Positions 3,209 to 24,681 of a stretch of DNA of 64,000 nt are shown one piece after another. The stretch comes from Candidatus Kapaibacterium sp. Its GTDB lineage: Bacteria; Bacteroidota; Ignavibacteria; Kapaibacteriales; UBA2268. The notes under the pieces were generated by a model. It was not told the DNA's origin and made no database searches. It saw nothing but the letters and a program-made list of their open reading frames with translations. Every line of letters starts with the position of its first letter. Position 1 is the stretch's first letter. The stretch spans positions 3,040,001-3,104,000 of the forward strand of contig OY762428.1 of NCBI GenBank assembly GCA_963665665.1, read 5' to 3'. A program made the position numbers and the translations under genes.

Positions 3209-3238
3209 AAAAACTCCAATAATTTGAATTCAGATATA

Positions 3239-3496
3239 TTAAGTTGCCCCGTTTCCTAAAGAACAAGGAGTGTTAACTGATACTCCTGCAGAACATGCGG
3301 CAATAGTTGTATATTTTGCGTTTCCGTCATTAAAGATTTGATCAACATTTGTAACTCAGGAACCGAAGTTGCAATAAGCAGATGCATTATTTCCACCTGC
3401 ACATTTGTTTCCGATTTATGCTGCTTCGGACCCATTAACACATAATTGCCCGGAATTTTCATTAAGTACTCTGATCATTAATTTTCTGTACTTCAT
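3239..3496 (-). pseudogene. Disrupted CxxG-repeat RiPP precursor paralogue
   Basis: GAAAGGAG RBS, then MKYRKLMIRVLNENSGQLCVNGSEAA*IGNKCAGGNNASAYCNFGS*VTNVDQIFNDGNAKYTTIAACSAGVSVNTPCSLGNGAT*. In-frame TAA at 3416-3418 and TGA at 3356-3358. Confidence 0.8.
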
Positions 3497-3876: not shown

Positions 3877-3885
3877 AATATTTCG

Positions 3886-3921: not shown

Positions 3922-3988
3922 AATTTCTTTATTCGTATTGGATTATACCGATCCTTCCATTCTATTGTAAAAAAAATTTTCTGCTAAT

Positions 3989-4015: not shown

Positions 4016-4162
4016 TTATAGCAGTCGCTTGGACAAAAAGCGTCAATCCCTATCAAACTCAAGATTGACAATTTTGGCGTAAATAATTATTTATATTTAT
4101 GAACATTTATTAATGTTAATATTATATACATTATTTTTTTTTACTTTATTGGGGTAAAATTA

Positions 4163-7100: not shown

Positions 7101-9700
7101 TGCAGGCACCGGGCGGCGGACTTTCCTTCTATCCTGACAGGGCAGAAACAGTTGTAATCAAGAACAACGTTATCCGCAACTTAAATCCTGAAAATGCAGA
7201 CGTGAAACGCTGCGGTATCCAGCTTTCAACACAGCGTGCAGGCATTGCAGACGAATACATGAATATACTTACACCTGCAAGGAAAGATTATCTTTCACGC
7301 AACGACATAATAGCAAACAATACTATCATCATCACAGATGACGCTGTTGACAACGTAGGCGCAACAGCAGGTATCATGCTTCAGCAGGTAGACGGCGCAG
7401 TTCTCAAGAACAATGCAATCGCCTTTGAAGACGAAGAATTTGCAGACAATGCATACACAACAACAGCAATCCTGCTCCAGAGCGAATGGCCTGAATGGGG
7501 TGCAGTAACATCCGACAGGAACGCCTTCGACATGGGCAATGCCAATGCAGACCTGATCCGCTTCATCCACATGGACGAAGACCAGAACGTAATAGAATAC
7601 GGCCAGACAGGTGAATTTGCAAACATAGCACAGTGGCAGGTATGGACAAAACAGGATGAGAACTCCGTAGTAGGCGAGTTCATAGGCGACCTTGACTATA
7701 CAGGCAACTATCCCTACCAGCTTCGCGTTGTATCGGATCCTTATCCTCTTGGATGTATCCTTAACAACCGCGGCGGCGAAGTAACAGAAGTAGAATATGA
7801 CATCGACGGCAACCTTCGCGGAGCAGCAGGCCAGCGTTACGACATCGGCGCCTTTGAATTCTCAGGCCGCATGTATGTAAGTGACGTTGAAATGCTTAAC
7901 GTACCGACACCGGGCGCATACAGGGCCGGCATGGGTACATTCAGCGATGCAGAATACATAATGACAGAAGCCCCGACAAACATCGTGGCAAGCCTGAGGA
8001 ATAACGGAACACTTCAGCAGTCAAACATCAATGTATATGCAAAGATCTATCGCGAACAGCCTGACGGATCATTCTCTGATACAGTAGAAATAGAAACAAC
8101 AGTAAAAACAAGCATTCCAACAACAGAATCAGTTAACGTTGACTTCCTTCTTGATGACCAGGACGGCGTAGACTTCTATCCTCAGTCATATTCAGAACTT
8201 GGCTTCTACAATGTACCTGATCATTTTGCAGGTATGGAATCCAATGTAACACCACGCTACAGGATAGTAATCTCTGTAGAATCAGACCAGTATAACTCTA
8301 ATAATGTTATCGACAAAGTTGTACGTTTCTATGTTAAACGTTCATCACTCGGCCTTCTGGCATCAGCCAGGGATATTGCCACAGAAATCTACTGGGGCGA
8401 ACCGACAACAGACGAGATAGCCGGTAAGCTGAACCTTGACAGCCTTCGTGAAGGCCTCCGCAAAGTCGGCTGGGTATCAGACCTTGGCGAAGGACAGTAT
8501 GATATAGACCTGTTCAACAGGCTCGGCTGGGAACCCAGGTCAGTAAACTACACAATGTACAAAACACTTCTCTGGTCAGACGGTGATGAAAACACAATGA
8601 GCAGATACGAGAAGATGGACATTGAAAGCTTCCTTGAAGGCGGCATGCAGAATGATAAGAAAAACCTTGTAATCGGTTCACAGGAACTTGTACGCCAGCT
8701 TGGAGGCAACGCATCCTCACTTGATTATGATCCTGACTTCCTTGATGAAGTATTCAGGGCCGAATACGTAACACCGGGCAACCCGATGGGCGCCGGCGTT
8801 AGCAACAGCGGCAATACTGCAATCGGTATCTCGGTAGGAACAAACCTTGAAAATGCTATCGTGGCTACAAGCTATGAATTTGCAGAAGATGAAGATCCTT
8901 ACTGCTCACTGATGAAAGTAACACAAAACGGTGAAGGCCTTGCAAGGCCGGCATATTACTATACAACACATACAGCCACACCTTCGGACAGCACACTCGG
9001 CGTGGCAGTAACATCCCTAAGCAAGAACATCGTGACACTTGGCGTTGACTGGCGTCACTGGGCAGACATGGAAGACGTTCTTCGCCAGGTACTTGACTTC
9101 CTGGATCAGAACGGCGGCTCGGTAGTACCGGTAGAACTTACAAGCTTCGATGCCATAGCAGCAGGCCAGAGGGTTGACCTAAGCTGGGAAACAGCAAGTG
9201 AATACAAATCCTCACACTTCGAGATAGAAAAAGCAGAAGTAAGCCAGGCAGGCATGGGTTCATTCATGCAGATCGGACGTATGAAAGCAGCCGGAACAAG
9301 CAGCTATGCCACACAGTACGGCCCTGTAGTTGACTATGATGTAAACTATGGCAATACTTACGCATACCGCCTGAAAATGGTTGACATTGACGGAAGCTAC
9401 GACTACAGCGATGAAGAAGTAGTAACAATCGGTGGAAATGAAATGATCTCTCTCGGCCAGGCATATCCGAACCCGAGTAAAGAATCAGCTAAGTTCGAAC
9501 TTACAACCGGCAACGATGTAAATGTAAGCATCGATCTTTATGACATGAGCGGCAAGCTTGTACGCAACGTACTCAGCGAAACAACAAGCGGCACAGTAAC
9601 AGTTGAAGTGGATACCCGCGACCTTACAAGCGGCAGCTACACACTTGTTCTTCGCAGCGGCTCAACAATCATCAACAGGACAGTACGCGTTGTTAAGTAA
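4163..9700 (+). CDS. Large T9SS-secreted surface protein (Ig/CARDB-like modules, right-handed beta-helix, T9SS C-terminal domain)
   Basis: Signal peptide ending AKA-Q; repeated ..V.N.G..D....NN Ig-like modules; I.NN.I beta-helix repeats; DIDGNLRG..DIGAFEF motif; PVELTSF and YPNP...GSYTLVL C-terminal domain. Confidence 0.85.
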   Translation: MVSTKFLRSLMAIAIFAVIAISGAKAQLLTDYTVSEYDGVYTPISGIGAGNGDDRSYRIDLPFIFNFDEQEITWVQVGTNGWMSLNKSYGTWYPASPTTSTNTIGFYSADLYTVGMIEYEVQGSAPNRVMVIQWRNQNNYSPRVHLCDWQIKLYETTGRFDIIWGSPSAAMGDRTGGFFVTGGSTTRYINIQPGNPSTFYYSNVNPNTTQWMRNPYADNIHVGKTYSFTTYPALMGAFPAQDAILRRGTIVNDENKPGVVMENNEMDGVYINYSIEGPLPASNPQYRTVYTATVEGDDTDFDVPVYNNGRTNFTHATGFVARTTPDNNGDLDLLTNELNIPGGTYKVRAQMSIPEVGFTQELADQTFIIALENDLAINRIISPKPKDEKKYPLSTGRIRVQCRVQNYGINDVTAFGAVARIYKDDEQVYEQEVEWTSTDPMSTGEYVDVNFPDYRPFETGDFDIVFEVTMVGVLDRELSNNRWPKTGDHYWFEVAHEIEAEALDIIEPAGEVFVGRPVKPLAKFQNNGVSDISDIDAEMVITNSDGDVVYRSPIIIQDIPQGRSNKVIADFDDFVPPAAGEYTACITITSDDDPVTDNNSICEDFSVVEALSGIYTIGTLNEGNVRNFLTFERALDQLYRRGMTGPVTFELTDAVYNIGSLDYTNQPAIDMSSTIVGLSEDQPIMFKPSRQRAVYRAGVKINMVSANGIGIYMGQNMEPSNPNAPVHIVRSSNKKNYSNFPGFVTFDGGANKAFQFSIDSDEDFRTVFYLAQGASNVTIKNCIIRGDYNTTPSFNADLPKMVFNSAQSQFLYEDDIRSAETYSAGILLRSTPPTTKETANLNALDSLFNQNNVIENNEITGFGYGIASMGMGVLFKQEANNFVKYYNMNNEYKDNVIHNVSRAAIFLGSEQNSTIKNNRIYEINGVSGMDAAGIILGGDAERDWFGYNVIDITVDGNEISEIDGDYEIRGIKVSQDPIVMQAPGGGLSFYPDRAETVVIKNNVIRNLNPENADVKRCGIQLSTQRAGIADEYMNILTPARKDYLSRNDIIANNTIIITDDAVDNVGATAGIMLQQVDGAVLKNNAIAFEDEEFADNAYTTTAILLQSEWPEWGAVTSDRNAFDMGNANADLIRFIHMDEDQNVIEYGQTGEFANIAQWQVWTKQDENSVVGEFIGDLDYTGNYPYQLRVVSDPYPLGCILNNRGGEVTEVEYDIDGNLRGAAGQRYDIGAFEFSGRMYVSDVEMLNVPTPGAYRAGMGTFSDAEYIMTEAPTNIVASLRNNGTLQQSNINVYAKIYREQPDGSFSDTVEIETTVKTSIPTTESVNVDFLLDDQDGVDFYPQSYSELGFYNVPDHFAGMESNVTPRYRIVISVESDQYNSNNVIDKVVRFYVKRSSLGLLASARDIATEIYWGEPTTDEIAGKLNLDSLREGLRKVGWVSDLGEGQYDIDLFNRLGWEPRSVNYTMYKTLLWSDGDENTMSRYEKMDIESFLEGGMQNDKKNLVIGSQELVRQLGGNASSLDYDPDFLDEVFRAEYVTPGNPMGAGVSNSGNTAIGISVGTNLENAIVATSYEFAEDEDPYCSLMKVTQNGEGLARPAYYYTTHTATPSDSTLGVAVTSLSKNIVTLGVDWRHWADMEDVLRQVLDFLDQNGGSVVPVELTSFDAIAAGQRVDLSWETASEYKSSHFEIEKAEVSQAGMGSFMQIGRMKAAGTSSYATQYGPVVDYDVNYGNTYAYRLKMVDIDGSYDYSDEEVVTIGGNEMISLGQAYPNPSKESAKFELTTGNDVNVSIDLYDMSGKLVRNVLSETTSGTVTVEVDTRDLTSGSYTLVLRSGSTIINRTVRVVK

Positions 9701-13396: not shown

Positions 13397-14896
13397 TTAA
13401 TTTTTTCTTTTATCAATGGCAAAAACTTTTTCCGTAATTCTTGATAATCTTACGAAAGGCAGGCCAATTAATAAATACACCGCAGCTATCATTATTCCGA
13501 TACCGAAGTAATCGTAGTATGTGGCAGCAAGCCTGCTGTATAGTTTTGTCAATTCAACTAAAGTTATGACGGACACAAGGGAAGAATCTTTCAACAAAGA
13601 AATAAAATCATTTGTAATTGGTGGTATAACCAGCCTGACAGCCTGCGGAAGGATAATGTGCCTGAGGGATTGATATTTTGTCATTCCAAGGGAAATAGCC
13701 GCTTCGGTTTGCCCTCTTGGTACAGAATTCAGCCCTGCACGATAATTCTCAGCCTCGTAGGCTGCATAGTTCAGCCCAAGCCCGATAACTGCCGCCATAA
13801 ATGGAGATAATTTGATTCCTATTGTAGGGAGTGCGTAAAATATAAATATCAATTGAATCAGAAGCGGGGTTCCCCTGATAATTTCGATATAGCTAACAGC
13901 AAGCCAGGAGAAAGGAGCCGGGGCATATACACGGGTTAATGCAAGGAACAGTCCGAATAGTATAGCAAGGATCATGGCAAAAATCGAAATCCCGAGTGTC
14001 ATCAATGCAGCTTCCCCGATCAAAGGAAGAAAGCCAATGTATTGATGCAATTTTACACTGAAATTTACTTCGTTTCCCTGTGATGCAACAAACCTGTCAA
14101 ATTCTGTAGGTGAAATATCAACTTCATCATGATCGTTGAAAAATAATTTCATCTTATAATTCCACAGGTTCCATTTGCCGTAGATTTCCCTTAGCTGTCC
14201 GCTGGCTGCAAGTTCATATATGGCTTTGTTTACTTTGTTAAGTAGAACTGTGTCTTCCTTTCGAAGTGCAATCCCATATTCTACATCACCAACGGGCGGC
14301 CCTACAAGTTCAAATTCAGGATTCCAGGAGCAATAATAAAGTGCTATGGGAGCATCAACAAGAGCTATGTTTATTCTGCCGTTAATCATATCGGTGAAGG
14401 CATTCACTTCGCCTTCATAGGTAAGAACATCAATATCACCTTCATCAAGAAGTATTCTTTCGGCAAGTGAATTTTTTAGGCATCCCACGGTTTGGCCATT
14501 AAGGTCATCGAGGGAATTTATTCCCTGTGTCCCCCTGACAACAACGATTTGCTCGTATGTTTTGTAGTAGGGTATCGAAAAACTTACTACTTTTTCTCTG
14601 TCGCCCGTTATTTCCAATCCGTTCATGGCAGCATCGTAATTCCCGCTTTGCAATCCCGGAATTAGTCCGTCCCACTGATTTTGGATAAATACAGCTTTCA
14701 TACCCATTTGCGCGGCAATAGCATTAGCAATGTCAACTTCAAAACCAATATTCTTAGATAATATCGAAGGGTCCTGAAAAATATAAGGTGCGTTCCCTTC
14801 TGCGTCGGCAGCCCAGCGGAACTCAGGCAACTCTTGTGATTTTAATGAAGAAATTGCAAAAAGTGTCAGGAATAATATTTTCAGGATTGAATTCAT
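13397..14896 (-). CDS. Polar amino acid ABC transporter, fused substrate-binding and permease subunit
   Basis: GFEVDIA/WDGLIPGL binding domain; RGTPLLIQL and EAAISLGMT (EAA) permease motifs. Confidence 0.92.
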   Translation of the reverse strand: MNSILKILFLTLFAISSLKSQELPEFRWAADAEGNAPYIFQDPSILSKNIGFEVDIANAIAAQMGMKAVFIQNQWDGLIPGLQSGNYDAAMNGLEITGDREKVVSFSIPYYKTYEQIVVVRGTQGINSLDDLNGQTVGCLKNSLAERILLDEGDIDVLTYEGEVNAFTDMINGRINIALVDAPIALYYCSWNPEFELVGPPVGDVEYGIALRKEDTVLLNKVNKAIYELAASGQLREIYGKWNLWNYKMKLFFNDHDEVDISPTEFDRFVASQGNEVNFSVKLHQYIGFLPLIGEAALMTLGISIFAMILAILFGLFLALTRVYAPAPFSWLAVSYIEIIRGTPLLIQLIFIFYALPTIGIKLSPFMAAVIGLGLNYAAYEAENYRAGLNSVPRGQTEAAISLGMTKYQSLRHIILPQAVRLVIPPITNDFISLLKDSSLVSVITLVELTKLYSRLAATYYDYFGIGIMIAAVYLLIGLPFVRLSRITEKVFAIDKRKN

Positions 14897-16037: not shown

Positions 16038-16271
16038 ATGAGTTTTAAATACAAAAAACCAGAATTGAAAGTATTAAATGATGATTCGATGTTATTTTGT
16101 AATAACGGAACATCGGCTCAAGCTGTCGGGCCGTCATATCAATGTATATCAGGAACTTCAGTCAATCCGGTACTTTGCACCGACGGTAGCACAAATGACG
16201 GGGTTTTTGTTCAGTGCGACAGCGGTGGATCTGCATTTGGTTTTGCCTGCGCAGTCGGCGGAACAGATTAA
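16038..16271 (+). CDS. Candidate RiPP precursor peptide 1 (YKKPEL leader, 5x CxxG)
   Basis: 77 aa; every Cys is in CxxG (CNNG, CISG, CTDG, CDSG, CAVG); first gene of the rSAM cassette. Confidence 0.85.
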   Translation: MSFKYKKPELKVLNDDSMLFCNNGTSAQAVGPSYQCISGTSVNPVLCTDGSTNDGVFVQCDSGGSAFGFACAVGGTD

Positions 16272-16368
16272 TCAGCTTTGATCATTGTAATAAATATTGA
16301 CCAATGTTATAAAATATTTTGTGTATAGATAATAAAACAGCGTGAAAAAAGTTTGAAATTAAGAATAA

Positions 16369-16403
16369 AGCCGTATTTGAATGTTACGGCTATTTTTTTT
16401 TTT
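16369..16403 (+). terminator. Internal terminator or attenuator after precursor 1
   Basis: AGCCGTA-N9-TACGGCT followed by an 11-nt T-run. Confidence 0.65.
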
Positions 16404-16459
16404 ATTAAATTATATGTTTAAAAAGTAGTAATGTATTTACAACAATAAATGAGGCAGAA

Positions 16460-16744
16460 ATGGCAAACAACCCTATTGCAAACCCGATGATAGTTCACAG
16501 GGTGGAGGATGATGACTGGGCGGTTCTATTTGATCCCGACGCTAACGAAACTTACGCTCTCGATCCTGTTAGTTCTTTTGTGTGGCAATTATTGGACGGT
16601 AAGCACAGCAAGGAAGAAATTCTGGCAAAACTGGAAAAAGAATGTGAGGATGGAATTCCCGAAGAAGCTGCAACAGACCTGGATGAGTTTCTTACAGAAC
16701 TGGAAGCAAAAGCTCTTGTTGGATACGAGCAGGCAATTGGTTAA
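16460..16744 (+). CDS. scmD: PqqD-family RiPP recognition element (SynChlorMet ScmD-like)
   Basis: 94 aa; AVLFDPD..TYALDPVSSFVWQLLDGKHS..EIL...DLDEFLTELEAKALV is the PqqD winged-helix pattern; GAGG RBS. Confidence 0.88.
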   Translation: MANNPIANPMIVHRVEDDDWAVLFDPDANETYALDPVSSFVWQLLDGKHSKEEILAKLEKECEDGIPEEAATDLDEFLTELEAKALVGYEQAIG

Positions 16745-16746
16745 TT

Positions 16747-17880
16747 ATGAAAATTGAACGCACTCCTAAAAGCCTTGACCTTGAAATTACAAGCAAGTGC
16801 AACCTAAGGTGTTCTTATTGCTCTCACTTCAATAGCGAAGGTGATACCGATACCGATTTAAGCACTGATGAATGGCTGCAATTCTTCGAAGAGCTGAAAG
16901 AATGCAACGTTATGGATGTTACTCTTTCTGGTGGCGAACCATTCATGAGAAAAGATATCCGTATCCTGCTTGACGGGATAATAAAAAATAGAATGAGGTT
17001 CGGATTTCTTACGAATGGTATTCTTTTTAATGATGACCTGGCTGAATATATTAAAACAACAGGCCGATGCAACAGTATCCAGGTTTCAATCGACGGCCCC
17101 GGCCCTGAAATTCATGATGCTTCGCGTGGTAAGGGAAGCTTTGAAAAAGCAATCGCCGGGCTTAAAACGATAATGAGACACGGCCTTCCTGCCACGGTAC
17201 GTGTTACGATAAACAAGCACAACTATAAAAAACTTCCTGAAATAGCTGAAATGTTGCTTGAAGAAGTAGGGCTTCATTCATTTTCAACAAACGCAGCTTC
17301 TCATCTCGGGCTTTGCCGTACTAATAAAGACGATGTTCAGCTTGGTGTGGAAGAATATACTGAATCAATGCAGACGATATTTACACTTGTTGAAAAGTAT
17401 GGCAACAGGATAAATGCCCAGGCAGGCCCTCTTGCATCAGGCAAGCAATGGATGGAAATGGAAAAAGCCCGGCAGAATAATTTAGATAATCTTCCCGGAT
17501 GCGGATATCTTACAAGTTGTGGCGGGATTTTCGCAAAAATGGCAATTCAGGCTGACGGATCAATGGTACCGTGTTCGCAGTTGCCGCACATGAAACTTGG
17601 TAAGGTCAACGTGGACAGCCTTGCAGATGTATGGCTGAATCATCCTGAGCTTAAACGCCTGCGTGAAAGAAGAGATATTCCGCTTGGTACATTTGACTCA
17701 TGCAAGGGCTGTTCGTATATACCTTATTGCAGGGGCGGATGCCCGGCACTGGCATATACCCTGAACGGAGATGAGAATGTTCCTTCTCCGGAATCATGCT
17801 ACAGGAATTTTCTTGCTGCGGGTGGAAGATTGCCGGTTTTAGATGATAACGAGCCATTTTTTAGTCCGGGATGTTGCTGA
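16747..17880 (+). CDS. scmE: Radical SAM/SPASM peptide maturase (ScmE-like)
   Basis: CNLRCSYC; SGGEPF; SPASM cysteines SCGG...VPC...CKGCSYIPYCRGGCP...SC. Confidence 0.88.
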   Translation: MKIERTPKSLDLEITSKCNLRCSYCSHFNSEGDTDTDLSTDEWLQFFEELKECNVMDVTLSGGEPFMRKDIRILLDGIIKNRMRFGFLTNGILFNDDLAEYIKTTGRCNSIQVSIDGPGPEIHDASRGKGSFEKAIAGLKTIMRHGLPATVRVTINKHNYKKLPEIAEMLLEEVGLHSFSTNAASHLGLCRTNKDDVQLGVEEYTESMQTIFTLVEKYGNRINAQAGPLASGKQWMEMEKARQNNLDNLPGCGYLTSCGGIFAKMAIQADGSMVPCSQLPHMKLGKVNVDSLADVWLNHPELKRLRERRDIPLGTFDSCKGCSYIPYCRGGCPALAYTLNGDENVPSPESCYRNFLAAGGRLPVLDDNEPFFSPGCC

Positions 17881-18026
17881 TGAAAATAAAATTTAGCATC
17901 ACTATCTTAAATATATACCAAACATAAAATACGTTTCCTGGATAGTTTGGTTTAACAGTGGATTAAATATAAATATTGTTTTTTGAATTTGTTCATTACA
18001 GTAAAAATTTTGAAAATTGGATTATT

Positions 18027-18302
18027 ATGAAAAAGAAATTTAGCTATACCAGACCATCGCTATCATCATTGTCAGATGAAATATCTCAATTCTGTAATGT
18101 AGGAACAGGAGCAACTTTAGCTGATACTCCTGCTATTCAGTGTACTGTTGGTGGGGATGCACAGCTGATTTGTGTTGCCGGTACCGGTTTTTCCAGTACG
18201 TATCCACATTGCGCTAATGGCCCTGCTGATTCAAAACTTGCATGTTCAACAGGATCAGGGGACACTAATCCCAGCTGTAATGTTGGCAATTCACCAGTTT
18301 AA
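18027..18302 (+). CDS. Candidate RiPP precursor peptide 2 (YTRPSL leader, 6x CxxG)
   Basis: From ATG 18027: MKKKFSYTRPSLSSL..., then CNVG, CTVG, CVAG, CANG, CSTG, CNVG; lies between the two rSAM genes. Confidence 0.85.
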   Translation: MKKKFSYTRPSLSSLSDEISQFCNVGTGATLADTPAIQCTVGGDAQLICVAGTGFSSTYPHCANGPADSKLACSTGSGDTNPSCNVGNSPV

Positions 18303-18329
18303 TATATTAACAATAAATACTTAATAATT

Positions 18330-19460
18330 ATGAGCGAAGAAAAAAATACAGAATTTAAAGTACCGGAATGCGGTTATCCGCTGAGCCAGATATATTTTTA
18401 CATGACTGAAGGATGCAACCTGAAATGCCGTCACTGCTGGATAGAACCGAAATTCCAGGCTTCCGGCAATAGTAAATGGCCCTCTATTGAGTTTGACCTT
18501 TTCAAGGATATATGCTATCAGGGCAGGGAACTTGGAATGAACTCAGTTAAACTAACCGGCGGGGAGCCACTGATAAATCCTGATATTGACAAAATACTTG
18601 ATTTCATTTATGAGGAGAAGTTCAGGCTGACAATTGAAACTAACGGCATCGAACTGACACCTGAAATTTGTGAAAAGATTGCCCGGTGTGAAGGCACTTT
18701 TGTTTCAATCAGCCTTGATGGCTCAACAGCAGAAGAACACGAATGGGTTCGCGGTGTTCCGGGTTGTTTCGAAGCAGCATTGCAAGGCGCACGGAATCTT
18801 GTAGCCGTGGGAATAAGGCCGCAGTTTATAATGTCGATAATGAAAAGGAATGCACACCAGATAGAAGATATTATTGAACTTGCCCGGAAAGAAAACGCCG
18901 AGTCGGTTAAATACAACCTGGTAACACCTACTGCACGTGGGGAGCAAATGCACGAGGCTGGCGAAACTCTGTCGATTGAAGAATTGATCCGTATTGGTAA
19001 ATGGGTGGAAGATGAATTGCAGCCAAAGTACAAAGATGTCAGGCTTCACTATTCTCATCCGGTTGCTTTCAAGCCTTTTGGCAAAATGTTTGAAAGACCA
19101 TTGGGACGTTGCGGTATATTCGGTATTATCGGAGTGCTCGGAAATGGTAAATATGCTCTTTGCGGTATCGGTGAAACTGTCCCTGAACTTGTTTTCGGCG
19201 ACGCGAGAAAAGATAAACTCGCAGATGTTTGGAATAATAACCAGGTACTTAATGATATTCGTAAAGGCTTACCAAAAGATTTGAATGGTATTTGCGGGGA
19301 TTGTCTCGTTAAAAACAAATGCCTTGGTTCCTGTGTAGCCATGAATTATTATCGTCATCACGATCTGTTTGCTCCTTTCTGGTATTGCGAGGAAGCACTT
19401 AAAGCCGGACTTTTCCCCAAAACCAGGATCAAGCCGGGATCGCCATTTGAAAAGGTATAA
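18330..19460 (+). CDS. scmF: Radical SAM/SPASM peptide maturase (ScmF-like)
   Basis: CNLKCRHC; TGGEPL; RCGI...ALCGIG...CGDCLVKNKCLGSCVA...WYC. Confidence 0.88.
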   Translation: MSEEKNTEFKVPECGYPLSQIYFYMTEGCNLKCRHCWIEPKFQASGNSKWPSIEFDLFKDICYQGRELGMNSVKLTGGEPLINPDIDKILDFIYEEKFRLTIETNGIELTPEICEKIARCEGTFVSISLDGSTAEEHEWVRGVPGCFEAALQGARNLVAVGIRPQFIMSIMKRNAHQIEDIIELARKENAESVKYNLVTPTARGEQMHEAGETLSIEELIRIGKWVEDELQPKYKDVRLHYSHPVAFKPFGKMFERPLGRCGIFGIIGVLGNGKYALCGIGETVPELVFGDARKDKLADVWNNNQVLNDIRKGLPKDLNGICGDCLVKNKCLGSCVAMNYYRHHDLFAPFWYCEEALKAGLFPKTRIKPGSPFEKV

Positions 19461-19472
19461 AACAAATACTAA

Positions 19473-21281
19473 ATGCGTTTATGGTATAAATATCTGAAGC
19501 AGGGGCTTTCCCGTAAGCTGCCTGTCGATAAGTTCAATGAAGAATCGAACTACGGCAGGCTCAGGGATAATATTAAACTATTATTTCCTCCGATAAAAAA
19601 ACACTGGAAGGCCGGGCTGATATCAATGTTTGTTCTGGTTCTGTCATCAGTCCTGACTTATCCCCTGCCAATGATAAACAAATATTTTATCGATGACGTT
19701 TTGCTGAAAAAGAGGATTGACCTTGTTGTTCCGGTAGTATTACTATTAACGGGAATTGGCCTTGCTTCGTATCTGACGGGCGTGTTGAAAGGCTTTTATA
19801 ATCAGCGATTCACACAGGAAGTGATACTCGATCTGCAAAAGACAATGATCGATAAGGTTTTGTCACTCCCAAAATTCTTCTTTGATAAAAATCGATCCGG
19901 CTATCTTATGTCAAGGATATCCGGAGATGTTCACGGTGTAAACTGGTTTCTTTCCGGCCCTATGGTTCAAATGTTTCTCCAGGCTATGAAATTCATTGGT
20001 GGTGTTTATTTCCTGATATTCCTGGAATGGCGTCTGGCAATTCCGGTTATTCTTACCTTGCCGATACCATTTTTCGCAATGCGTTATTTTGCTAAGCGGT
20101 CTTATATTATGAGCCATTATACCAGCGAAATGAATGCAAAAACAAACGCCAGCCTGCATGAAACTGTTAATACTGTTTCTCTTATTAAATCTTTTGCCAA
20201 CGAGAAAAAAGCATCAAAGTCCCTATTCAGGATGTTGAGAAAAAAAGTTAACATCGGGTATGAACAAAACAGTATGAATTCTCTTAGCAGTTTGATCAAC
20301 CAGCTAATGCCACAGGTTGCCAAATTTGCTGTTATGCTTTTTGGCGCTTACTGGGTAATCAGCGGCGAGTGGCAATTGGGATCTCTTATCGCTTTCCAAT
20401 CATACTTATCCTACGTGTACGGGCCGGTAAATCAGCTTTCTTCCAGTATGAACCAATTGCAGACAGCCCGGGCAACAATGGACAGGGTTGCTACTATTCT
20501 CGGAATGGATTCCGAAGAGAATACTGACAGCGGAGATGAAATTACGAAACTGACCGGAAGCATAGAATTTGATAATGTAAGCTTCGGGTATGATAAGAAA
20601 AAACCTGTTTTATCTAATCTTTCCTTTAATATAAAAGCAGGGGAACAATGGGCTGTGATCGGCCCAAGCGGTATTGGTAAAACGACGCTTATCAGCCTGC
20701 TTTTAAAATTTTATTCCACTGATTCCGGAGATATTCTATTTGATGATAAGTCCTGTAAAGATATCAATGTGCGTTCTTTAAGAAGAAGGCTTGGCTATGT
20801 GGCACAATCAACGAGCCTGCAAACAGGAACAATTCTGAAAAATCTGAAATACGGAAATCCCGGAGCAAGTGTAGAAGATATAGTTAAAGCAGCAAAGATT
20901 GCCGGAATTCATGAATTTATTGAAGAACTGCCCGAAAAATATAATACCCATATAGAAGAAGGCGGCGCTAACCTTTCCGAAGGCCAGAAACAAAGGCTTT
21001 CTATTGCAAGAGCTCTTGTTCTGAATCCTGATATTTATATACTGGATGAACCAACTGCTTCAGTAGATAACCTGACTGAACAGTCAATTTACAAAGCTCT
21101 TCCTGAAACAATAAAAAATAAGACAACAATCACTATAGCACACAGGTTAAATACTATTAAATCAGCAGAAAAAATATTATTTTTGAGAAAGAATAAAATT
21201 CCTCTTATCGGTTCACATAATGAATTGAAAGGCGATGATGATTACATGGAATTTTTCGAAACTATAAATAATTGTAACTGA
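19473..21281 (+). CDS. ABC exporter, fused transmembrane and ATP-binding domains (no C39 peptidase domain)
   Basis: Six-TM domain; GPSGIGKTT, LSEGQKQR, ILDEPT. Confidence 0.92.
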   Translation: MRLWYKYLKQGLSRKLPVDKFNEESNYGRLRDNIKLLFPPIKKHWKAGLISMFVLVLSSVLTYPLPMINKYFIDDVLLKKRIDLVVPVVLLLTGIGLASYLTGVLKGFYNQRFTQEVILDLQKTMIDKVLSLPKFFFDKNRSGYLMSRISGDVHGVNWFLSGPMVQMFLQAMKFIGGVYFLIFLEWRLAIPVILTLPIPFFAMRYFAKRSYIMSHYTSEMNAKTNASLHETVNTVSLIKSFANEKKASKSLFRMLRKKVNIGYEQNSMNSLSSLINQLMPQVAKFAVMLFGAYWVISGEWQLGSLIAFQSYLSYVYGPVNQLSSSMNQLQTARATMDRVATILGMDSEENTDSGDEITKLTGSIEFDNVSFGYDKKKPVLSNLSFNIKAGEQWAVIGPSGIGKTTLISLLLKFYSTDSGDILFDDKSCKDINVRSLRRRLGYVAQSTSLQTGTILKNLKYGNPGASVEDIVKAAKIAGIHEFIEELPEKYNTHIEEGGANLSEGQKQRLSIARALVLNPDIYILDEPTASVDNLTEQSIYKALPETIKNKTTITIAHRLNTIKSAEKILFLRKNKIPLIGSHNELKGDDDYMEFFETINNCN

Positions 21282-21284
21282 CAG

Positions 21285-22160
21285 ATGCAGCAGGCAAAAC
21301 AAATAGAACAATTTTATCTGAAACTTTCGGATGGCAGCAAATGGGGATTCAATTCAGCTCCTGAATTGAAAGAATGGTTTAGCATATTTGCCAGAATAAT
21401 GTCTTTGAAAAAAGATAACTCTGATGTGGATTATTTGTTTAATATCCGGCCCAAAAACGGAAGGGAAATTCCTGCCGGAGTTGATGAAAGCTGGGATTCT
21501 TTCAGGCAAAGCGGGGCATATACTATATGGAGCAAAAAAGGGGAAAAACAGTTTTTAATTGAAATAAACAAAGAGTTTATCGACCACCCCGAGATTAGAG
21601 TGATAAATATGTGGTCAACATTGAAGGCTCTATATAAATTTTATGCTGAGAACGGTGGAGGCCCGGTTCATAGCGGAATGGCAGCCCTGAATGGCAAAGC
21701 TATACTGATAGCTGCCCCGGGGGGTACCGGGAAATCAACATCCATACGCAGGCTGCCGGATTATTGGAAAAAAATGTGCGATGACACAACCCTGATAGTA
21801 AAAAAAGATGATAATTTCTTTGTTCATCCCATGCCTACATGGAGTGACCATCTATGGGAGCATAATTTTACTACTTTCGATACTTCAAGGGGATTCCCAT
21901 TAGCAGCTGTTTTCTTTCTGAAGCAGTCCGGCACTGACAAAGTTACCCCGATTTCCAGGCCTGAAGGCATTCAGTTGCTTTTAAGTTCAGTTAAACAGGT
22001 TTTTCAAACTTATGTTGATAAGTTGAAGGATAATGAAAAGTCTGAAATGGCTATGAAACTGTTTGATAACACCTGTAATATTGTTGGAAAAACACCATGC
22101 TACAGGCTTGAAGCTACATTGAACGGGGATTTCTGGGAAGAAATTGAAAAGGTATTATAG
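21285..22160 (+). CDS. scmC: ScmC-like HPr-kinase-related P-loop protein
   Basis: VHSG...ILIAAPGGTGKST...MCDDTTLI matches the HprK His / Walker A / DD layout; PMPTWSD. Confidence 0.8.
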   Translation: MQQAKQIEQFYLKLSDGSKWGFNSAPELKEWFSIFARIMSLKKDNSDVDYLFNIRPKNGREIPAGVDESWDSFRQSGAYTIWSKKGEKQFLIEINKEFIDHPEIRVINMWSTLKALYKFYAENGGGPVHSGMAALNGKAILIAAPGGTGKSTSIRRLPDYWKKMCDDTTLIVKKDDNFFVHPMPTWSDHLWEHNFTTFDTSRGFPLAAVFFLKQSGTDKVTPISRPEGIQLLLSSVKQVFQTYVDKLKDNEKSEMAMKLFDNTCNIVGKTPCYRLEATLNGDFWEEIEKVL

Positions 22161-22759
22161 TGGAAAAGCACAAGCCGCAATATAATACAAGTGTCGGGCC
22201 AAGCATGTACCCGACAATGAAAAGCGGCGATGCATATATCCTTAAAGAAATATCTTCTATTGATGAAATATGCCGGGGAGATGTAATTGTTTTTCCCCAC
22301 CCTGACGAACCAATTAATGTTGTTCACAGAATTATTAGGATTTATCCCGAAGGTTTTCAAACCAGGGGAGATAATAATAACCGTAAAGATCCCTATATTG
22401 TGAAAAAGGATGATATTATCGGTGTGGTGGGCAAGGTTATCAGGAAAAATAAAAGATATACTATTCATGGCGGAAATGCGGGATTATTCATCCACAGGAT
22501 GGCTTGGGCCAGGAAATATTCCCGGCCCTATATTGTAAAGCCACTGAAGTTTTTATTGAATTTGCTGATCAGATCAAAAATATTCTTCATTTTCGGAAAT
22601 TTCTTTTCAACTTCAATCACAAAAATTAACCGAATGGGTTCCGAGCAATTTATCTTAAGTGTAAATAAAAAACCGGTTGGAAAAAAAGAATCAAAGGAAT
22701 CTGCGTGGATAATTAGTTTCCCTTATAGTTTGTTTATTAATCCGAAGAAATTACCATGA
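22160..22759 (+). CDS. S24/S26 family signal-peptidase-like protease
   Basis: GPSMYPTM, RGDVIVF, VVHRI, TRGDNN...DP; GTG start overlaps the upstream TAG. Confidence 0.85.
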   Translation: MEKHKPQYNTSVGPSMYPTMKSGDAYILKEISSIDEICRGDVIVFPHPDEPINVVHRIIRIYPEGFQTRGDNNNRKDPYIVKKDDIIGVVGKVIRKNKRYTIHGGNAGLFIHRMAWARKYSRPYIVKPLKFLLNLLIRSKIFFIFGNFFSTSITKINRMGSEQFILSVNKKPVGKKESKESAWIISFPYSLFINPKKLP

Positions 22760-22980
22760 AATACCGAAAACCAAAAATATACAGACTTTTCCCATCGAAA
22801 ATAGACATAAGCGCCTGTATGGACGGTGAGCAGGCTTCGAGCATGGCCTGCGTATCCGGCCCGGAGGCATCCAGCGGGTGTAAAACCGGGGCTGCTGCCG
22901 GTACGGCATGTAAGGATGGTTCCGCTGCCGGATTCAGTTGCAACAGCGGTGCAGGATTCGAGGAATGGGAAAGGAAGTAA
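22756..22980 (+). CDS. Candidate RiPP precursor peptide 3 (YRKPKI leader, 5x CxxG)
   Basis: CMDG, CVSG, CKTG, CKDG, CNSG; ATGA overlap with the peptidase stop. Confidence 0.85.
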   Translation: MKYRKPKIYRLFPSKIDISACMDGEQASSMACVSGPEASSGCKTGAAAGTACKDGSAAGFSCNSGAGFEEWERK

Positions 22981-23034: not shown

Positions 23035-23814
23035 ATGAAAATATCAATATTAACCGAAAATACAGCAGCGCCTTATTTCCTTGCGGAATTTGGTTTTTCA
23101 TGCTTTATAGAAACAAACGGGAATAATTTTCTTTTTGATTTAGGCGCCACGGACATTTATCTGAAAAATGCCGAAAAACTTGGCATTGATATAGATAATT
23201 GCAATAATGTTATTCTCAGCCATGGCCACTGGGATCATGGAAACGGCCTTAAATACATTAAGGGAAAAAATCTATTATGTCATCCGGGGGCTTTTCGTAA
23301 AAGATACCACAAAGGTGATGATAATAATATCGGCCTTGAAATGACTAAAGAAGAAATTGAGACAAATTTCTGCCTGACAAGCTCGGCGAAACCATATTAT
23401 ATTGATGAAAATATAATTTTCCTTGGAGAAATTCCCAGGCTGAATGATTTTGAATCAAAGGAATCAGATTTTATACTCTCCGACGGAAGCGAGGATTTTG
23501 TAAGTGATGATACCGCCATGGCCATTGTTGAAGACGGCAGGCTAATCATCATTTCCGGGTGCGCCCATTCCGGAATTTGTAATATTATAGAATATGCGCG
23601 TAATATTTCCGGCATTTCGGACGTGAAAGCTGTGCTGGGCGGCTTCCATTTAAAAAATGAAAACCGTCAGTTGGATGAAACAATTAAATATTTTAAAAAA
23701 TTAAATGCAAAGCAGCTTTATCCCTGCCACTGTACTCAATTGCCTGCTATGGCAGCTTTTTATAACAATTTTAAAATTAACAGGATAATGGCAGGAAACA
23801 CATTGGAAATTTAG
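23035..23814 (+). CDS. MBL-fold metallo-hydrolase (COG1237-like)
   Basis: SHGHWDHG, GCAHSG, GGFHL, PCHCT. Confidence 0.9.
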   Translation: MKISILTENTAAPYFLAEFGFSCFIETNGNNFLFDLGATDIYLKNAEKLGIDIDNCNNVILSHGHWDHGNGLKYIKGKNLLCHPGAFRKRYHKGDDNNIGLEMTKEEIETNFCLTSSAKPYYIDENIIFLGEIPRLNDFESKESDFILSDGSEDFVSDDTAMAIVEDGRLIIISGCAHSGICNIIEYARNISGISDVKAVLGGFHLKNENRQLDETIKYFKKLNAKQLYPCHCTQLPAMAAFYNNFKINRIMAGNTLEI

Positions 23815-23823
23815 GAAAATAAA

Positions 23824-24681
23824 ATGAAAACATATATTGATTGTATTCCATGCTTTATGAACCAGGCGCTAAGGGCCGGAAGAATATCCACAAGCGATGA
23901 TATAATACTTAAAAAAATAATGGATAACGTAGGCGGGAAGCTGAAAGATGTATCCCTTACCGAAGTACCGCCCCGTTCGGCAATGATCATATACGATGAA
24001 ATATTTCGCCAGACGGGAATAGAAGACCCTTACAAAAAAATCAAAAAGGAAAGTATAGACCTTGCTAAAAGTATTCTGGGGCAAATCAGAAATATGGTGG
24101 AATCTGCCCCCGACCCGTTACTTGCTGCCGTAAAAGCAGCAATTGCAGGTAATATTATTGATTTTGGTGCCTGCGAGGATTTTGATATTAAAAAGGATGT
24201 AAAGGCATCTATGGATATGGACTTATCTATAAACGATTATGAGGTTTTCAAAGAAAAAATAAATTATGCACGTACAGTCCTTTACCTTGGGGATAATGCC
24301 GGGGAAACTGTTTTTGACAGGTTGCTAATCGAGAATATTGACGCAAGGGTGGTTTATGCTGTCAGGGAGAAACCTATTATCAATGATGCAGTGATAGAAG
24401 ATGCAGTTGATTCCGGCCTGGCCGATATATGCGAGATAATTTCTTCAGGCAGTACTGCTCCTGCAACTATTCTTGAAGAATGTAATGAACGGTTTTTAGG
24501 TCTTTATCACGGCGGAGCTGATATTATCATCAGCAAAGGGCAGGGAAATTACGAGAGTTTATCTGATAGTAACGAAAATATTTTCTTCCTTCTTAAAACT
24601 AAATGCAGCGTTATTGCCCGCGACCTTGATACCGAAACAGGTGCACTTGTATTGAAAGCCGGTAAAAATTATGATTTGTAA
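23824..24681 (+). CDS. DUF89/ARMT1-like damage-control phosphatase
   Basis: DCIPC, AGNIIDFG, DNAGE, PIINDA, KGQGNYE. Confidence 0.9.
   Translation: MKTYIDCIPCFMNQALRAGRISTSDDIILKKIMDNVGGKLKDVSLTEVPPRSAMIIYDEIFRQTGIEDPYKKIKKESIDLAKSILGQIRNMVESAPDPLLAAVKAAIAGNIIDFGACEDFDIKKDVKASMDMDLSINDYEVFKEKINYARTVLYLGDNAGETVFDRLLIENIDARVVYAVREKPIINDAVIEDAVDSGLADICEIISSGSTAPATILEECNERFLGLYHGGADIIISKGQGNYESLSDSNENIFFLLKTKCSVIARDLDTETGALVLKAGKNYDL

What the first reader, a model, noticed from the sequence alone, without database searches (positions are those of the whole stretch)
16038..18302. Precursor family with a YxxPxL leader and strictly periodic CxxG core repeats
Seen: the three intact peptides begin YKKPELKVL, YTRPSLSSL and YRKPKIYRL. 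Their first Cys falls at residue 21-23. All 16 Cys are in CxxG units spaced 10-16 residues apart, with Ser/Thr/Gly/Ala-rich divergent linkers. Known: YxxPxL is the RRE-binding leader motif of lasso peptides, and SPASM enzymes form Cys-carbon thioethers in sacti/ranthipeptides. Inference: each CxxG is a modification unit processed iteratively, giving beads-on-a-string rings. No lasso cyclase is present, so a lasso-type leader is being used by rSAM chemistry.
Basis: partly seen in the sequence, partly recalled or inferred. Interest (0 to 1): 0.88.

Follow-up and report, generated by a model that had tools for sequence, protein, structure and literature searches.

The report
Divergent ScmA precursors of SynChlorMet cassette
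Three small genes encode cysteine-repeat precursor peptides of an already catalogued but chemically uncharacterised radical-SAM peptide-modification cassette, and they belong to a large, mostly unannotated peptide family with a lasso-peptide-like leader.

Summary
Three intact ORFs (16038-16271, 18027-18302, 22756-22980) carry a Y-x-x-P-x-[L/I] motif near the N-terminus. All 16 of their Cys lie in C-x-x-G, spaced 10-16 residues apart. A fourth copy (3242-3496, minus strand) is a pseudogene.

They sit inside a SynChlorMet (SCM) cassette: ScmD (PqqD-type RRE), ScmE and ScmF (radical SAM/SPASM), an ABC exporter, ScmC (HPr-kinase-like) and an S26 peptidase. NCBIfam already has a precursor model, ScmA (TIGR04252). 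It misses these peptides, but a profile-profile comparison links them to peptides beside ScmE in other phyla, including one that passes that model (96.8%).

The genome holds 18 copies and two cassettes. A profile search found 1150 cluster representatives. The family unit is C-x-x-G-(S/T)-x-(A/P), with a period of 10-12.

By sequence, ScmD's nearest solved relatives rank TbiB1 and TfuB1 above PqqD. ScmC keeps the catalytic motif of lasso precursor kinases.

The lasso-type recognition idea is supported. Thioether "beads on a string" remains an inference.

This is a new, divergent member of a known in-silico kind whose chemistry is untested.

The parts
16038..16271 (+). Precursor peptide 1 (ScmA-like, 77 aa, 5 CxxG units), upstream of scmD
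16369..16402 (+). Terminator-like hairpin with a 7-bp stem followed by a U11 run, about 100 nt after peptide 1
   Evidence: -13 kcal/mol, z = -3.68, 0 of 200 shuffles fold as well.
16460..16744 (+). ScmD, a discrete PqqD-family RRE (94 aa)
   Evidence: TIGR04248 85.8 bits, best hit but below the cut-off of 100. PF05402; profile closest to 9x8z_B, TbiB1 and TfuB1.
16747..17880 (+). ScmE, radical SAM/SPASM enzyme without a fused RRE
   Evidence: TIGR04250 546.8 bits (cut-off 400). ScmE residues 7-223 align to SkfB residues 108-319.
18027..18302 (+). Precursor peptide 2 (91 aa, 6 CxxG units), between scmE and scmF
   Evidence: Peptides occupy the same position downstream of scmE in L009 and L010.
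18330..19460 (+). ScmF, second radical SAM/SPASM enzyme
   Evidence: TIGR04251 519.5 bits (cut-off 400)
19473..21281 (+). ABC exporter (transmembrane domain plus ATPase, no peptidase domain)
   Evidence: only PF00664 and PF00005 pass their cut-offs. ABC genes lie in or beside 6 of the 13 other SCM loci mapped (L121, L122, L123, L126, L127, L008).
21285..22160 (+). ScmC, HPr-kinase/PEPCK-like P-loop protein and probable precursor kinase
   Evidence: TIGR04249 227 bits (cut-off 125). HPrK structures E 1.9e-5; invariant H129, G149, K150, T152, D166, D167; model pLDDT 80 with PEPCK-fold hits.
22160..22759 (+). S26 (SipW/archaeal-type) signal-peptidase-like protein, candidate leader peptidase
   Evidence: TIGR02228 70.7 bits (cut-off 51.85); invariant S15, M16, H56, R57, G70, D71 in 9 of 9 orthologs. 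Present in 8 of the 13 other SCM loci mapped (L121-L128).
22756..22980 (+). Precursor peptide 3 (74 aa, 5 CxxG units); its start overlaps the S26 stop by 4 nt
   Evidence: Close metagenomic relatives P0007 and P0009.
3242..3496 (-). Pseudogene copy of the family with two in-frame stops

Best explanation
The three ORFs are real genes for divergent ScmA-type precursor peptides of a SynChlorMet radical-SAM RiPP cassette.

Shown:
- The peptides belong to one family of 18 copies in this genome. A profile search found 1150 cluster representatives.
- The family occurs beside ScmE/ScmF in at least three lineages.
- It consists of a leader of about 20 residues with [Y/W]-x-x-P-x-[L/I/V], followed by 3-10 units of C-x-x-G-(S/T)-x-(A/P) with a period of 10-12.

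Inferred:
- The discrete RRE ScmD binds the leader motif as lasso B1 proteins bind YxxPxL.
- ScmD hands the peptide to the two RRE-less radical SAM/SPASM enzymes, and probably to the HPr-kinase-like ScmC.
- Each unit is modified in turn. The most likely product is a small thioether ring from the Cys sulfur to a carbon of a residue 3-6 positions downstream. This would give a string of unnested rings.
- The cytoplasmic SipW-type S26 peptidase removes the leader and the ABC transporter exports the product.
- The same enzyme sets probably process the dispersed copies.

My odds for the separate steps: precursors of the SCM cassette about 0.9; ScmD-leader recognition about 0.7; thioether rings one per unit about 0.4.
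For: Cassette identity: one search gives ScmE 546.8, ScmF 519.5 and ScmC 227 bits, all over their cut-offs.

Link to ScmA:
- A peptide beside ScmE in L121 scores 87.6 bits on TIGR04252 (cut-off 35). L009 scores 28.7, L127 21.8 and L010 18.3, all below the cut-off.
- hhalign of the own-genome peptides (A2) against peptides from other SCM loci (A7) gives 96.8% and E 2.8e-10 over 72 columns, leader included.

Co-location: 10 of 13 other SCM loci hold a peptide with the leader motif and C-x(2,3)-G units.

Genome level: ScmE is over its cut-off in 8 of 401 genomes of the phylum sample. The peptide profile A3 matches in 7 of 401, all of them ScmE-positive, and in 0 of 393 ScmE-negative genomes.

Family statistics:
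- 1150 representatives at E <= 1e-3.
- Of 144 small proteins examined, 139 carry [YWF]xxPx[LIVM].
- 820 of 864 Cys are in CxxG, and Gly is at +3 in 96% of 739 units.
- Ala or Pro is at +6 in 68% of units.
- 588 of 706 spacings are 10-12.
- The motif's aromatic residue lies 17-18 residues before the first Cys in 92 of 143.
- The tail after the last Cys is 6-9 residues in 121 of 143. This points to an acceptor downstream of each Cys.

RRE:
- The ScmD profile hits 9x8z_B at 4.1e-6, TbiB1 at 5e-5 and TfuB1 at 5.4e-5, against PqqD at 5e-3.
- ScmE and ScmF have no N-terminal RRE.
- Complex prediction gave weak support. The score was 0.39 with a best control of 0.02. That mark was reached by 58 of 80 solved complexes and 2 of 110 mismatched pairs, but at 0.60 or under by only 7 of those 80 and by both mismatches that passed. 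The runs agree in at least 89% of contacts and the partner pLDDT is at least 53.

Kinase:
- ScmC's invariant H129...G149-K150...D166-D167 has the same spacing, within one residue, as H148...G168-K169-S170...D186-D187 of the lasso precursor kinase BsfK.
- BsfK's activity is boosted by its RRE (passages of PMC10368454).

Thioether lead:
- ScmE's best solved relative is the sactisynthase SkfB at 82.1 bits; the next best is 53.3.
- Precedents are unnested small sactionine rings in streptosactin and QmpA (passages of PMC9389541) and six Cys-Asp thioethers in freyrasin (passages of PMC8326336).
Against: - No chemical evidence of any kind exists, and no RNA run was available.
- TIGR04252 does not match the window's peptides even at E <= 1.
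- ScmD is below its curated cut-off (85.8 against 100).
- ScmD shows no BLASTP similarity to this genome's own lasso B1.
- Its NCBIfam scores for lasso-type and PQQ-type PqqD models are nearly equal: 29, 26 and 25.6 bits.
- Pro of the motif is replaced by Leu in several paralogs of this genome.
- ScmF's best solved relative is a decarboxylase, BlsE, not a thioether enzyme.
- All sactipeptide and ranthipeptide NCBIfam models score far below their cut-offs: StsB 104.5 of 625 and PapB 101.5 of 340.
- Three of 13 SCM loci showed no intact peptide: L006 has only a fragment, and L007 and L123 have none.
- The A3 genome test is circular for six of the seven positive genomes, because their peptides are in the profile.
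- The seven other ScmE-positive genomes come from two genera of one family.
- The complex score is in the range where a pass is 'more often wrong than right unless the guess was likely beforehand'.
Confidence: 0.55

Rival explanations
1. These are genuine SCM precursors, but the radical SAM enzymes do something other than Cys thioether rings. Examples are epimerisation, C-C or C-O crosslinks in the linkers, conversion of Cys to another residue, or S- or C-methyl-type chemistry. The kinase would add phosphate. Gly at +3 would serve only as a turn or as access for the enzyme.
For: - ScmE and ScmF score similarly against many functionally different SPASM families: WgkB 132.6, AhbD 124.1, GeoRSP 120.6 and PqqE 111.7 bits.
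- ScmF's best solved relative is the decarboxylase BlsE.
- Two different radical SAM enzymes plus a kinase suggest more than one chemistry.
Against: - Cys is the one residue kept in every unit besides Gly. 95% of Cys are in CxxG.
- Cys-donor thioethers are the documented outcome for Cys-rich SPASM substrates (PMC8326336 passages; PMC13692751 abstract).
- ScmE is closest to SkfB.
Confidence: 0.27
2. The peptides are not crosslinked by the enzymes at Cys. The regular Cys would act as metal, Fe-S or disulfide ligands in a small repetitive fold such as a beta-solenoid.
For: - The decamer is regular and rich in Gly, Ser and Ala.
- 11 of 155 stored proteins are long repeat proteins that match only the core part of the profile.
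- One of them has a sub-threshold RDM3 beta-solenoid hit at 29 bits against a cut-off of 35.
Against: - The peptides have a leader, no signal peptide, and sit inside a cassette with an RRE, two radical SAM enzymes, a peptidase and an exporter.
- At genome level they are tied to ScmE.
Confidence: 0.07
3. The peptides are substrates of the genome's lasso peptide machinery, since they carry a lasso-type leader.
For: - A complete lasso set lies at about 2.304-2.306 Mb: B1 87 bits (cut-off 80), B2 82.2 bits (cut-off 33) and a cyclase at 207.9 bits on an ORF cut by the locus end.
- Its candidate precursor has the leader WKKPQVIDF, close in form to ScmA leaders.
Against: - At the family level there is no Thr at -2 of the first Cys. 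That position is G 36% and A 32%.
- There is no Asp or Glu 7-9 residues into the core. Position +6 is Ala in 70%, and +7 and +8 are S, T or G.
- The cores are 50-70 residues long.
- No copy lies near the lasso genes; the nearest is 93 kb away.
- ScmD and the lasso B1 share no BLASTP similarity.
Confidence: 0.02
4. The ORFs are chance reading frames.
For: They are short, are missed by Pfam and NCBIfam, and the genome is AT-rich.
Against: - Shuffle test: at most 10 of 16 Cys in CxxG in 200,000 shuffles.
- There are 18 paralogs, 1150 representatives and a conserved position in the cassettes.
Confidence: 0.01

Closest known systems
SynChlorMet (SCM) cassette of NCBIfam/TIGRFAMs: ScmA TIGR04252, ScmC TIGR04249, ScmD TIGR04248, ScmE TIGR04250, ScmF TIGR04251
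   Same: ScmE, ScmF and ScmC pass their equivalog cut-offs, and ScmD is the best hit. The gene order ScmD-E-F-C-S26 is the same as in other SCM loci. The precursors share the leader motif and Cys-x-x-Gly units with a peptide that passes TIGR04252.
   Different: - The ScmA model (49 positions) does not detect the window's peptides.
- These peptides are longer, with 5-6 units against 3 in the L121 ScmA.
- They start directly with MKY-type leaders.
- They exist as 18 copies, 12 of them far from any cassette.

I found no paper on the cassette: searches for 'SynChlorMet', 'TIGR04250/TIGR04251/ScmE/ScmF' and 'ScmA' plus 'radical SAM' found nothing relevant. Haft & Basu 2011 is not held.
Freyrasin/PapB and other ranthipeptides (SCIFF family)
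   Same: The core has a Cys-containing motif repeated many times. Freyrasin has six Cys-to-Asp C-beta thioethers made by one radical SAM/SPASM enzyme (passages of PMC8326336).
   Different: - Here the fixed partner is Gly at +3 and Ala/Pro at +6, not Asp.
- The RRE is a separate protein.
- There are two radical SAM enzymes, a kinase-like protein and an S26 peptidase.
- The PapB model scores 101.5 bits against a cut-off of 340.
Type 2 sactipeptides (streptosactin/GggB, QmpA/QmpB)
   Same: [quoted passage not shown] Streptosactin has a pair of 4-residue rings (passages of PMC9389541). A C-x-x-G ring would be a 4-residue ring.
   Different: Those have two rings in peptides of about 14 residues from streptococci. 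Here there would be 5-6 rings, and up to 10 in the family, in cores of 50-70 residues. No product is known.
Lasso peptide recognition module (YxxPxL leader, B1 RRE, HPr-kinase-like precursor kinase such as BsfK)
   Same: - The leader motif has the same form.
- The ScmD profile matches TbiB1 and TfuB1 best among named structures. That these two are lasso B1 proteins is recalled.
- ScmC keeps the kinase motif H...GxGKS...DD.
- The second-best NCBIfam hits of ScmD and ScmC are the two partners of one system, PqqD_rel_X and HprK_rel_A.
   Different: - There is no B2 protease or cyclase in the cassette.
- There is no Thr(-2) and no acidic ring-closing residue.
- The modifying enzymes are radical SAM proteins.
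Prochlorosins (one lanthipeptide synthetase, many dispersed precursors; recalled, no call)
   Same: Many paralogous precursors have a conserved leader and a hypervariable core and are scattered over the genome: 18 copies and two enzyme sets.
   Different: The enzyme class differs, and in this family the positions of Cys and Gly are fixed.
CrpA/CrpC of Methanococcus voltae
   Same: A SPASM radical SAM enzyme installs ranthionine crosslinks on a Cys-rich substrate encoded next to it (abstract of PMC13692751).
   Different: The substrate there is a large protein. According to a section heading in the paper's outline, the enzyme has a predicted RRE of its own. The family is unrelated.

Membership tests
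SynChlorMet cassette | ScmE equivalog (TIGR04250, cut-off 400) | tested here: met
   546.8 bits
SynChlorMet cassette | ScmF equivalog (TIGR04251, cut-off 400) | tested here: met
   519.5 bits
SynChlorMet cassette | ScmC equivalog (TIGR04249, cut-off 125) | tested here: met
   227 bits
SynChlorMet cassette | ScmD equivalog (TIGR04248, cut-off 100) | tested here: inconclusive
   85.8 bits: the best hit but under the cut-off. It is 37-51% identical to ScmD of nine other SCM loci.
ScmA precursor family (TIGR04252) | Match to the ScmA model (cut-off 35 bits) | tested here: not met
   No hit at E <= 1 for the window peptide tabulated individually (P1). Only 6 of the 30 A3 members hit at E <= 1, and at E <= 0.01 none of the three window peptides had any NCBIfam hit.
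ScmA precursor family (TIGR04252) | Homology to bona fide ScmA, and a position next to ScmE/ScmF | tested here: met
   hhalign of A2 against A7 gives 96.8% and E 2.8e-10; A7 contains the L121 peptide that scores 87.6 bits on TIGR04252. P2 lies between scmE and scmF.
Sactipeptides | Cys sulfur to alpha-carbon thioether | not testable with these tools
   Needs MS/NMR of the product.
Sactipeptides | Maturase of a known sactisynthase family | tested here: inconclusive
   SkfB is ScmE's best solved relative at 82.1 bits. The NCBIfam sactisynthase models are far below their cut-offs: StsB 104.5 of 625 and SkfB 96.9 of 300.
Ranthipeptides (SCIFF/freyrasin) | PapB/CteB-type maturase | tested here: not met
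   PapB model 101.5 bits against a cut-off of 340.
Ranthipeptides (SCIFF/freyrasin) | Conserved Asp, Asn or Thr acceptor near each Cys | tested here: not met
   Asp is at most 11% at any position from +1 to +9, Thr is 16% at +4, and the fixed positions are Gly +3 and Ala/Pro +6.
Lasso peptides | YxxPxL-type leader motif | tested here: met
   3 of 3 window peptides carry it, with Ile for Leu in P3. 139 of 144 family members carry [YWF]xxPx[LIVM].
Lasso peptides | Thr (or Ile/Val) at -2 and a ring-closing Asp/Glu at core position 7-9 | tested here: not met
   Position -2 of the first Cys is G or A in 68%. Positions +6 to +8 are A, S, T or G.
Lasso peptides | B2 protease and Asn-synthetase-like cyclase in the cluster | tested here: not met
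   The only PF13471 match in the genome is at 2,305,517-2,305,795, outside the window. No window ORF that I scanned is a cyclase.

The most novel reading that the evidence does not exclude
ScmA-type peptides would be a very large, hypervariable library of 'string-of-beads' peptides. Each C-x-x-G-(S/T)-x-(A/P) decamer would be closed into its own small thioether ring by ScmE/ScmF. Substrate recognition would be borrowed wholesale from lasso peptide pathways, using a YxxPxL-type leader, a B1-like RRE and an RRE-assisted HPr-type kinase. One or two enzyme sets would mature some 17 different precursors scattered round the chromosome. That would be a new RiPP class, with the first poly-ring type-2 thioether topology and a radical SAM analogue of the prochlorosin strategy.
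Probability: 0.3. Interest if true: 0.8.

Novelty: new member of a known kind. Interest (0 to 1): 0.55.

Why it matters
In the literature I could search, the SCM cassette exists only as a set of annotation models. Nobody appears to have shown what ScmE and ScmF do.

This window, with the family built from it, supplies what an experiment needs:
- clear substrates, three of them inside the operon;
- a defined recognition motif;
- a defined repeat unit with three fixed positions;
- the full accessory set (RRE, kinase-like protein, peptidase, exporter).

It also shows that the curated ScmA model covers only a small corner of a family of more than a thousand sequence clusters. Most members therefore go unannotated.

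If the units are ring-closed one by one, the products would be a new thioether topology. The system would also be a natural scaffold for libraries, because the linkers vary freely while Cys and Gly stay fixed.

Tried and rejected
- Pfam and NCBIfam scans of the three peptides found nothing at E <= 0.01.
- The ESM Atlas gave only unnamed 'hypothetical protein' clusters at 0.91-0.92.
- The word-indexed protein search found only 11 proteins, mostly this genome's own. The full profile search was needed.
- The pattern-based scan of genome contigs with ScmE returned 80 loci. Only five (L006-L010) were true ScmE relatives at 32-56% identity; the rest were generic SPASM enzymes that I did not use.
- The profile of own-genome peptides alone (A2) gave two hits in ScmE-negative genomes, G030 and G226. 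They cover only the core part of the profile and lie in Arg-rich frames without a leader, so I judged them spurious.
- Eleven of the 155 stored proteins are longer than 140 aa and match only the repeat part. Pfam gave nothing over its cut-off for the seven I scanned, so I left them out of the family statistics.
- The MBL-fold gene (23035-23814) and the ARMT1-like gene (23824-24681) downstream have no counterpart in the 13 other SCM loci, so I do not count them as part of the system.
- Foldseek for the S26 model gave only weak signal-peptidase rows, the best at E 1.1e-2. The assignment rests on sequence.
- Expression: no RNA holder was listed among 9 runs.
- L007 has its own lasso B1, so it does not show that ScmD serves a lasso leader.
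- Literature: 'YxxPxL' plus 'radical SAM' gave 0 papers. 'CxxG' never occurred in the 15 papers listed. PMC10114670 and PMC10288494 do not mention SCM. Supplementary files were not consulted; supplementary lists in radical SAM genome-mining papers may mention this cassette.


Full report
**What is in the sequence**

The window encodes three intact small ORFs on the plus strand.
- P1: 16038-16271, 77 aa.
- P2: 18027-18302, 91 aa.
- P3: 22756-22980, 74 aa.

Each has a short basic N-terminus followed by YKKPELKVL, YTRPSLSSL or YRKPKIYRL. The first Cys is at residue 21, 23 or 21. All 16 Cys sit in C-x-x-G, with spacings of 10-16.

The cores are dominated by Gly, Ala, Ser and Thr. In 200,000 shuffles of the cores no more than 10 of 16 Cys fell in CxxG.

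A fourth copy lies at 3242-3496 on the minus strand. It has two in-frame stops, TAA and TGA, and still shows five CxxG units.

**Surroundings**

The genes from 16460 to 22759 are as follows.
- A PqqD-family protein. Its best NCBIfam hit is ScmD at 85.8 bits, under the cut-off of 100.
- ScmE (546.8 bits) and ScmF (519.5 bits), both radical SAM/SPASM proteins.
- An ABC exporter without a peptidase domain.
- ScmC (227 bits).
- An S26 signal-peptidase-like protein (TIGR02228, 70.7 bits).

This is the SynChlorMet (SCM) cassette of NCBIfam. P1 lies upstream of scmD and is followed by a terminator-like hairpin with a U11 run. P2 lies between scmE and scmF. P3 overlaps the stop codon of the S26 gene.

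**The family in this genome**

The window is 3,040,001-3,104,000 of a single 5.46-Mb contig with 38.6% G+C. A second SCM cassette lies at about 1.44 Mb.

An HMM built from the peptides, plus motif scans, finds 18 members.
- Three are in the window's cassette.
- One is the pseudogene, 13.5 kb away.
- Two lie about 6.5 kb from the second cassette's ScmE. Their leader subtype is YC[T/I]PEV[I/V]DF.
- Six are interleaved with hydrogenase, pyruvate:ferredoxin oxidoreductase, ferritin and NADH-dehydrogenase genes, 43-51 kb from the second cassette.
- Six are single copies, 0.27-2.3 Mb from any cassette.

In 14 intact copies 73 of 77 Cys are in CxxG. Two of the exceptions are in the leader. The Pro of the motif is Leu in several copies.

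**The family elsewhere**

I mapped 13 other SCM loci: L121-L128 from the phylum sample and the second own cassette, and L006-L010 from public contigs. Ten of them contain a peptide with [Y/W]-x-x-P-x-[L/I/V/M] followed by C-x(2,3)-G units. These peptides usually lie beside scmD, scmE or scmF.

L006 has only a leaderless fragment. L007 and L123 have none.

The order ScmD-E-F-C-S26 recurs in these loci, with some variation.

NCBIfam does have a precursor model, TIGR04252 'SCM_precur_ScmA', with 49 positions and a cut-off of 35 bits.
- The L121 peptide scores 87.6 bits.
- L009, L127 and L010 score 28.7, 21.8 and 18.3 bits.
- The window's peptides are not hit at all.

A profile-profile comparison of this genome's peptides with those of the other loci gives 96.8% probability and E 2.8e-10 over 72 columns, leader included. 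The window's peptides are therefore divergent ScmA.

**Tie to the enzymes at genome level**

In a sample of 401 genomes of the phylum, ScmE is over its cut-off in 8: this genome and 7 genomes from two genera of one family.

The mixed profile A3 matches in 7 of the 401. All 7 are ScmE-positive, and none of the 393 ScmE-negative genomes has a match. One ScmE-positive genome (G314) has no match.

This test is circular for the six genomes whose peptides are in A3. Its informative part is the absence of matches elsewhere. It also found two further distal copies, on other contigs of G262 and G050.

**Size and shape of the family**

A profile search over 1.84 billion cluster representatives found 1150 at E <= 1e-3.

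I examined the 144 stored proteins of at most 140 aa.
- 139 carry [YWF]xxPx[LIVM].
- 820 of 864 Cys are in CxxG.

The unit is C-x-x-G-(S/T)-x-(A/P).
- Gly is at +3 in 96% of 739 units.
- Ser or Thr is at +4 in 44%.
- Ala or Pro is at +6 in 68%.
- 588 of 706 spacings are 10-12.

The aromatic residue of the motif lies 17-18 residues before the first Cys in 92 of 143. The lasso motif spans positions -17 to -12 of the leader. The first Cys therefore sits about where a lasso core would begin.

The tail after the last Cys is 6-9 residues in 121 of 143. This suggests that each unit needs the residues downstream of its Cys.

**Recognition**

ScmE and ScmF lack the N-terminal RRE domain. ScmE residues 7-223 align to residues 108-319 of SkfB. 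A separate RRE is therefore needed.

The ScmD profile's best solved relatives are a 'PqqD family protein' (9x8z_B, 4.1e-6), TbiB1 (5e-5) and TfuB1 (5.4e-5). These rank ahead of PqqD (5e-3). That TbiB1 and TfuB1 are lasso B1 proteins solved with their leaders is recalled.

The complex prediction for ScmD with residues 1-36 of the precursor gave weak support. The score was 0.39 with a best control of 0.02, subject to the calibration caveats quoted in the For line.

Two results go against a close kinship. ScmD has no BLASTP similarity to this genome's own lasso B1. Its NCBIfam scores for lasso-type and PQQ-type models are nearly equal.

**ScmC**

The ScmC profile matches HPr kinase structures at E 1.9e-5. 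Its model (pLDDT 80.2) matches PEP-carboxykinase structures at E 1.5e-6 with TM 0.4-0.47. That HPr kinase shares this fold is recalled.

Eight ScmC sequences keep H129, G149, K150, T152, D166 and D167. These correspond to the motif H148-G163-G166-G168-K169-S170-D186-D187 of the lasso precursor kinase BsfK. BsfK's activity on its precursor is strongly raised by its RRE (passages of PMC10368454).

I infer that ScmC phosphorylates the Ser/Thr-rich precursor with the help of ScmD. The site and purpose are unknown.

**Leader removal**

Nine S26 orthologs keep the Ser-Met box, a His-Arg pair and the Gly-Asp box. They start directly at the catalytic box, without a membrane anchor. They also carry a conserved C-terminal extension of about 100 residues.

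The gene is present in 8 of the 13 other loci (L121-L128). The exporter has no peptidase domain. This makes the S26 protein the best candidate for the leader peptidase, but that is an inference.

**Chemistry**

Nothing here can show the modification. Three points favour Cys-donor thioethers.
- Cys is strictly kept.
- ScmE's nearest solved relative is the sactisynthase SkfB, at 82.1 bits against 53.3 for the next.
- There are precedents. Streptosactin and QmpA have unnested small sactionine rings. Freyrasin has six Cys-Asp thioethers. CrpA, a Cys-rich protein, receives ranthionines.

Other points weigh against or leave the question open.
- ScmF is nearest to a decarboxylase.
- All thioether-family NCBIfam models score far below their cut-offs.
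- The presence of two radical SAM enzymes and a kinase suggests additional chemistry.

**Lasso peptides as a rival**

The genome does have a lasso set at about 2.304-2.306 Mb: B1, B2 and a cyclase. Its candidate precursor has the leader WKKPQVIDF, Thr at -2, Gly1 and Glu8.

The CxxG peptides lack Thr(-2) and the acidic residue, and they are far longer. They are not lasso substrates.

**Verdict**

The ORFs are ScmA-type precursors of a known, computationally defined cassette. That makes this a new, divergent member of a known kind and not a new kind.

Three things are, as far as my searches reach, not in print.
- The extent of the family.
- Its decamer unit.
- The lasso-like recognition and kinase module.

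The source paper of the TIGRFAMs models and all supplementary files could not be read.

Noticed in passing
G000:C1:1,439,700-1,448,400 (locus L128): A second SCM cassette (ScmD, ScmE, ScmF, then about 4 kb, then two peptides, ScmC and S26). Its two peptides have a distinct leader subtype, YC[T/I]PEV[I/V]DF[K/R]WM, with a Cys inside the motif.
   Followed up: partly
G000:C1:1,483,260-1,491,326 (locus L131): Six family peptides on the plus strand sit in the gaps between minus-strand housekeeping genes: FeFe hydrogenase, NuoF-like, pyruvate:ferredoxin oxidoreductase, rubrerythrin, ferritin and NADH dehydrogenase subunits. No maturase is nearby.
   Followed up: partly
G000:C1:about 2,303,300-2,306,300 (locus L138 and beyond): A lasso peptide gene set (B1 at 87 bits, B2 at 82 bits, cyclase). 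The candidate precursor MKDNKKEWKKPQVIDF... has Thr(-2), Gly1, Glu8 and a C-terminal Ser. Its leader motif resembles the ScmA leaders.
   Followed up: partly
L007:4081-12277: On a public deltaproteobacterial MAG contig, a lasso set lies directly upstream of ScmD-ScmE-ScmF, on the same strand. It comprises B1, a cyclase in pieces, a precursor KKPYSTPELIVHGAVERIT..., an HprK-related kinase and a B12-type radical SAM gene in two pieces. No ScmA, ScmC or S26 is present, and ScmE and ScmF are each split into two frames.
   Followed up: partly
L006:827-1316 and 2782-3461, 4117-4544: In a Brocadiaceae MAG contig, small unrelated ORFs sit between scmD, scmE and scmF. Only a leaderless three-unit CxxG fragment remains at 3874-3981. 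I did not identify the inserted ORFs by any scan.
   Followed up: no
L122:11786-11983 and 13742-13939; L126:8036-8305: In some genomes of family f21 the units are C-x-x-x-G as often as C-x-x-G (for example CNPLG, CLANG, CLVTG). L122 also has two ScmF copies.
   Followed up: no
window 47980-48700: A degenerate tandem array of 21-bp units (also read as 42 and 63 bp). Its translation gave the Cys-rich 'CCLG' frames that my first CxxG scan picked up. It is unrelated to the peptide family.
   Followed up: partly
window 4163-9700: An ORF of 1845 aa whose only Pfam match is a C-terminal Por_Secre_tail sorting domain. It lies next to the pseudogene copy.
   Followed up: no
family-wide: The first unit is the most conserved: C-x-[N/D/S]-G-S-x-A, with Ser at +4 in 57% and Ala at +6 in 70%. 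The small residues at +4 and +6 would fit a signal-peptidase-type -3/-1 site. The leader/core boundary might therefore lie after the first unit and not before the first Cys.
   Followed up: no
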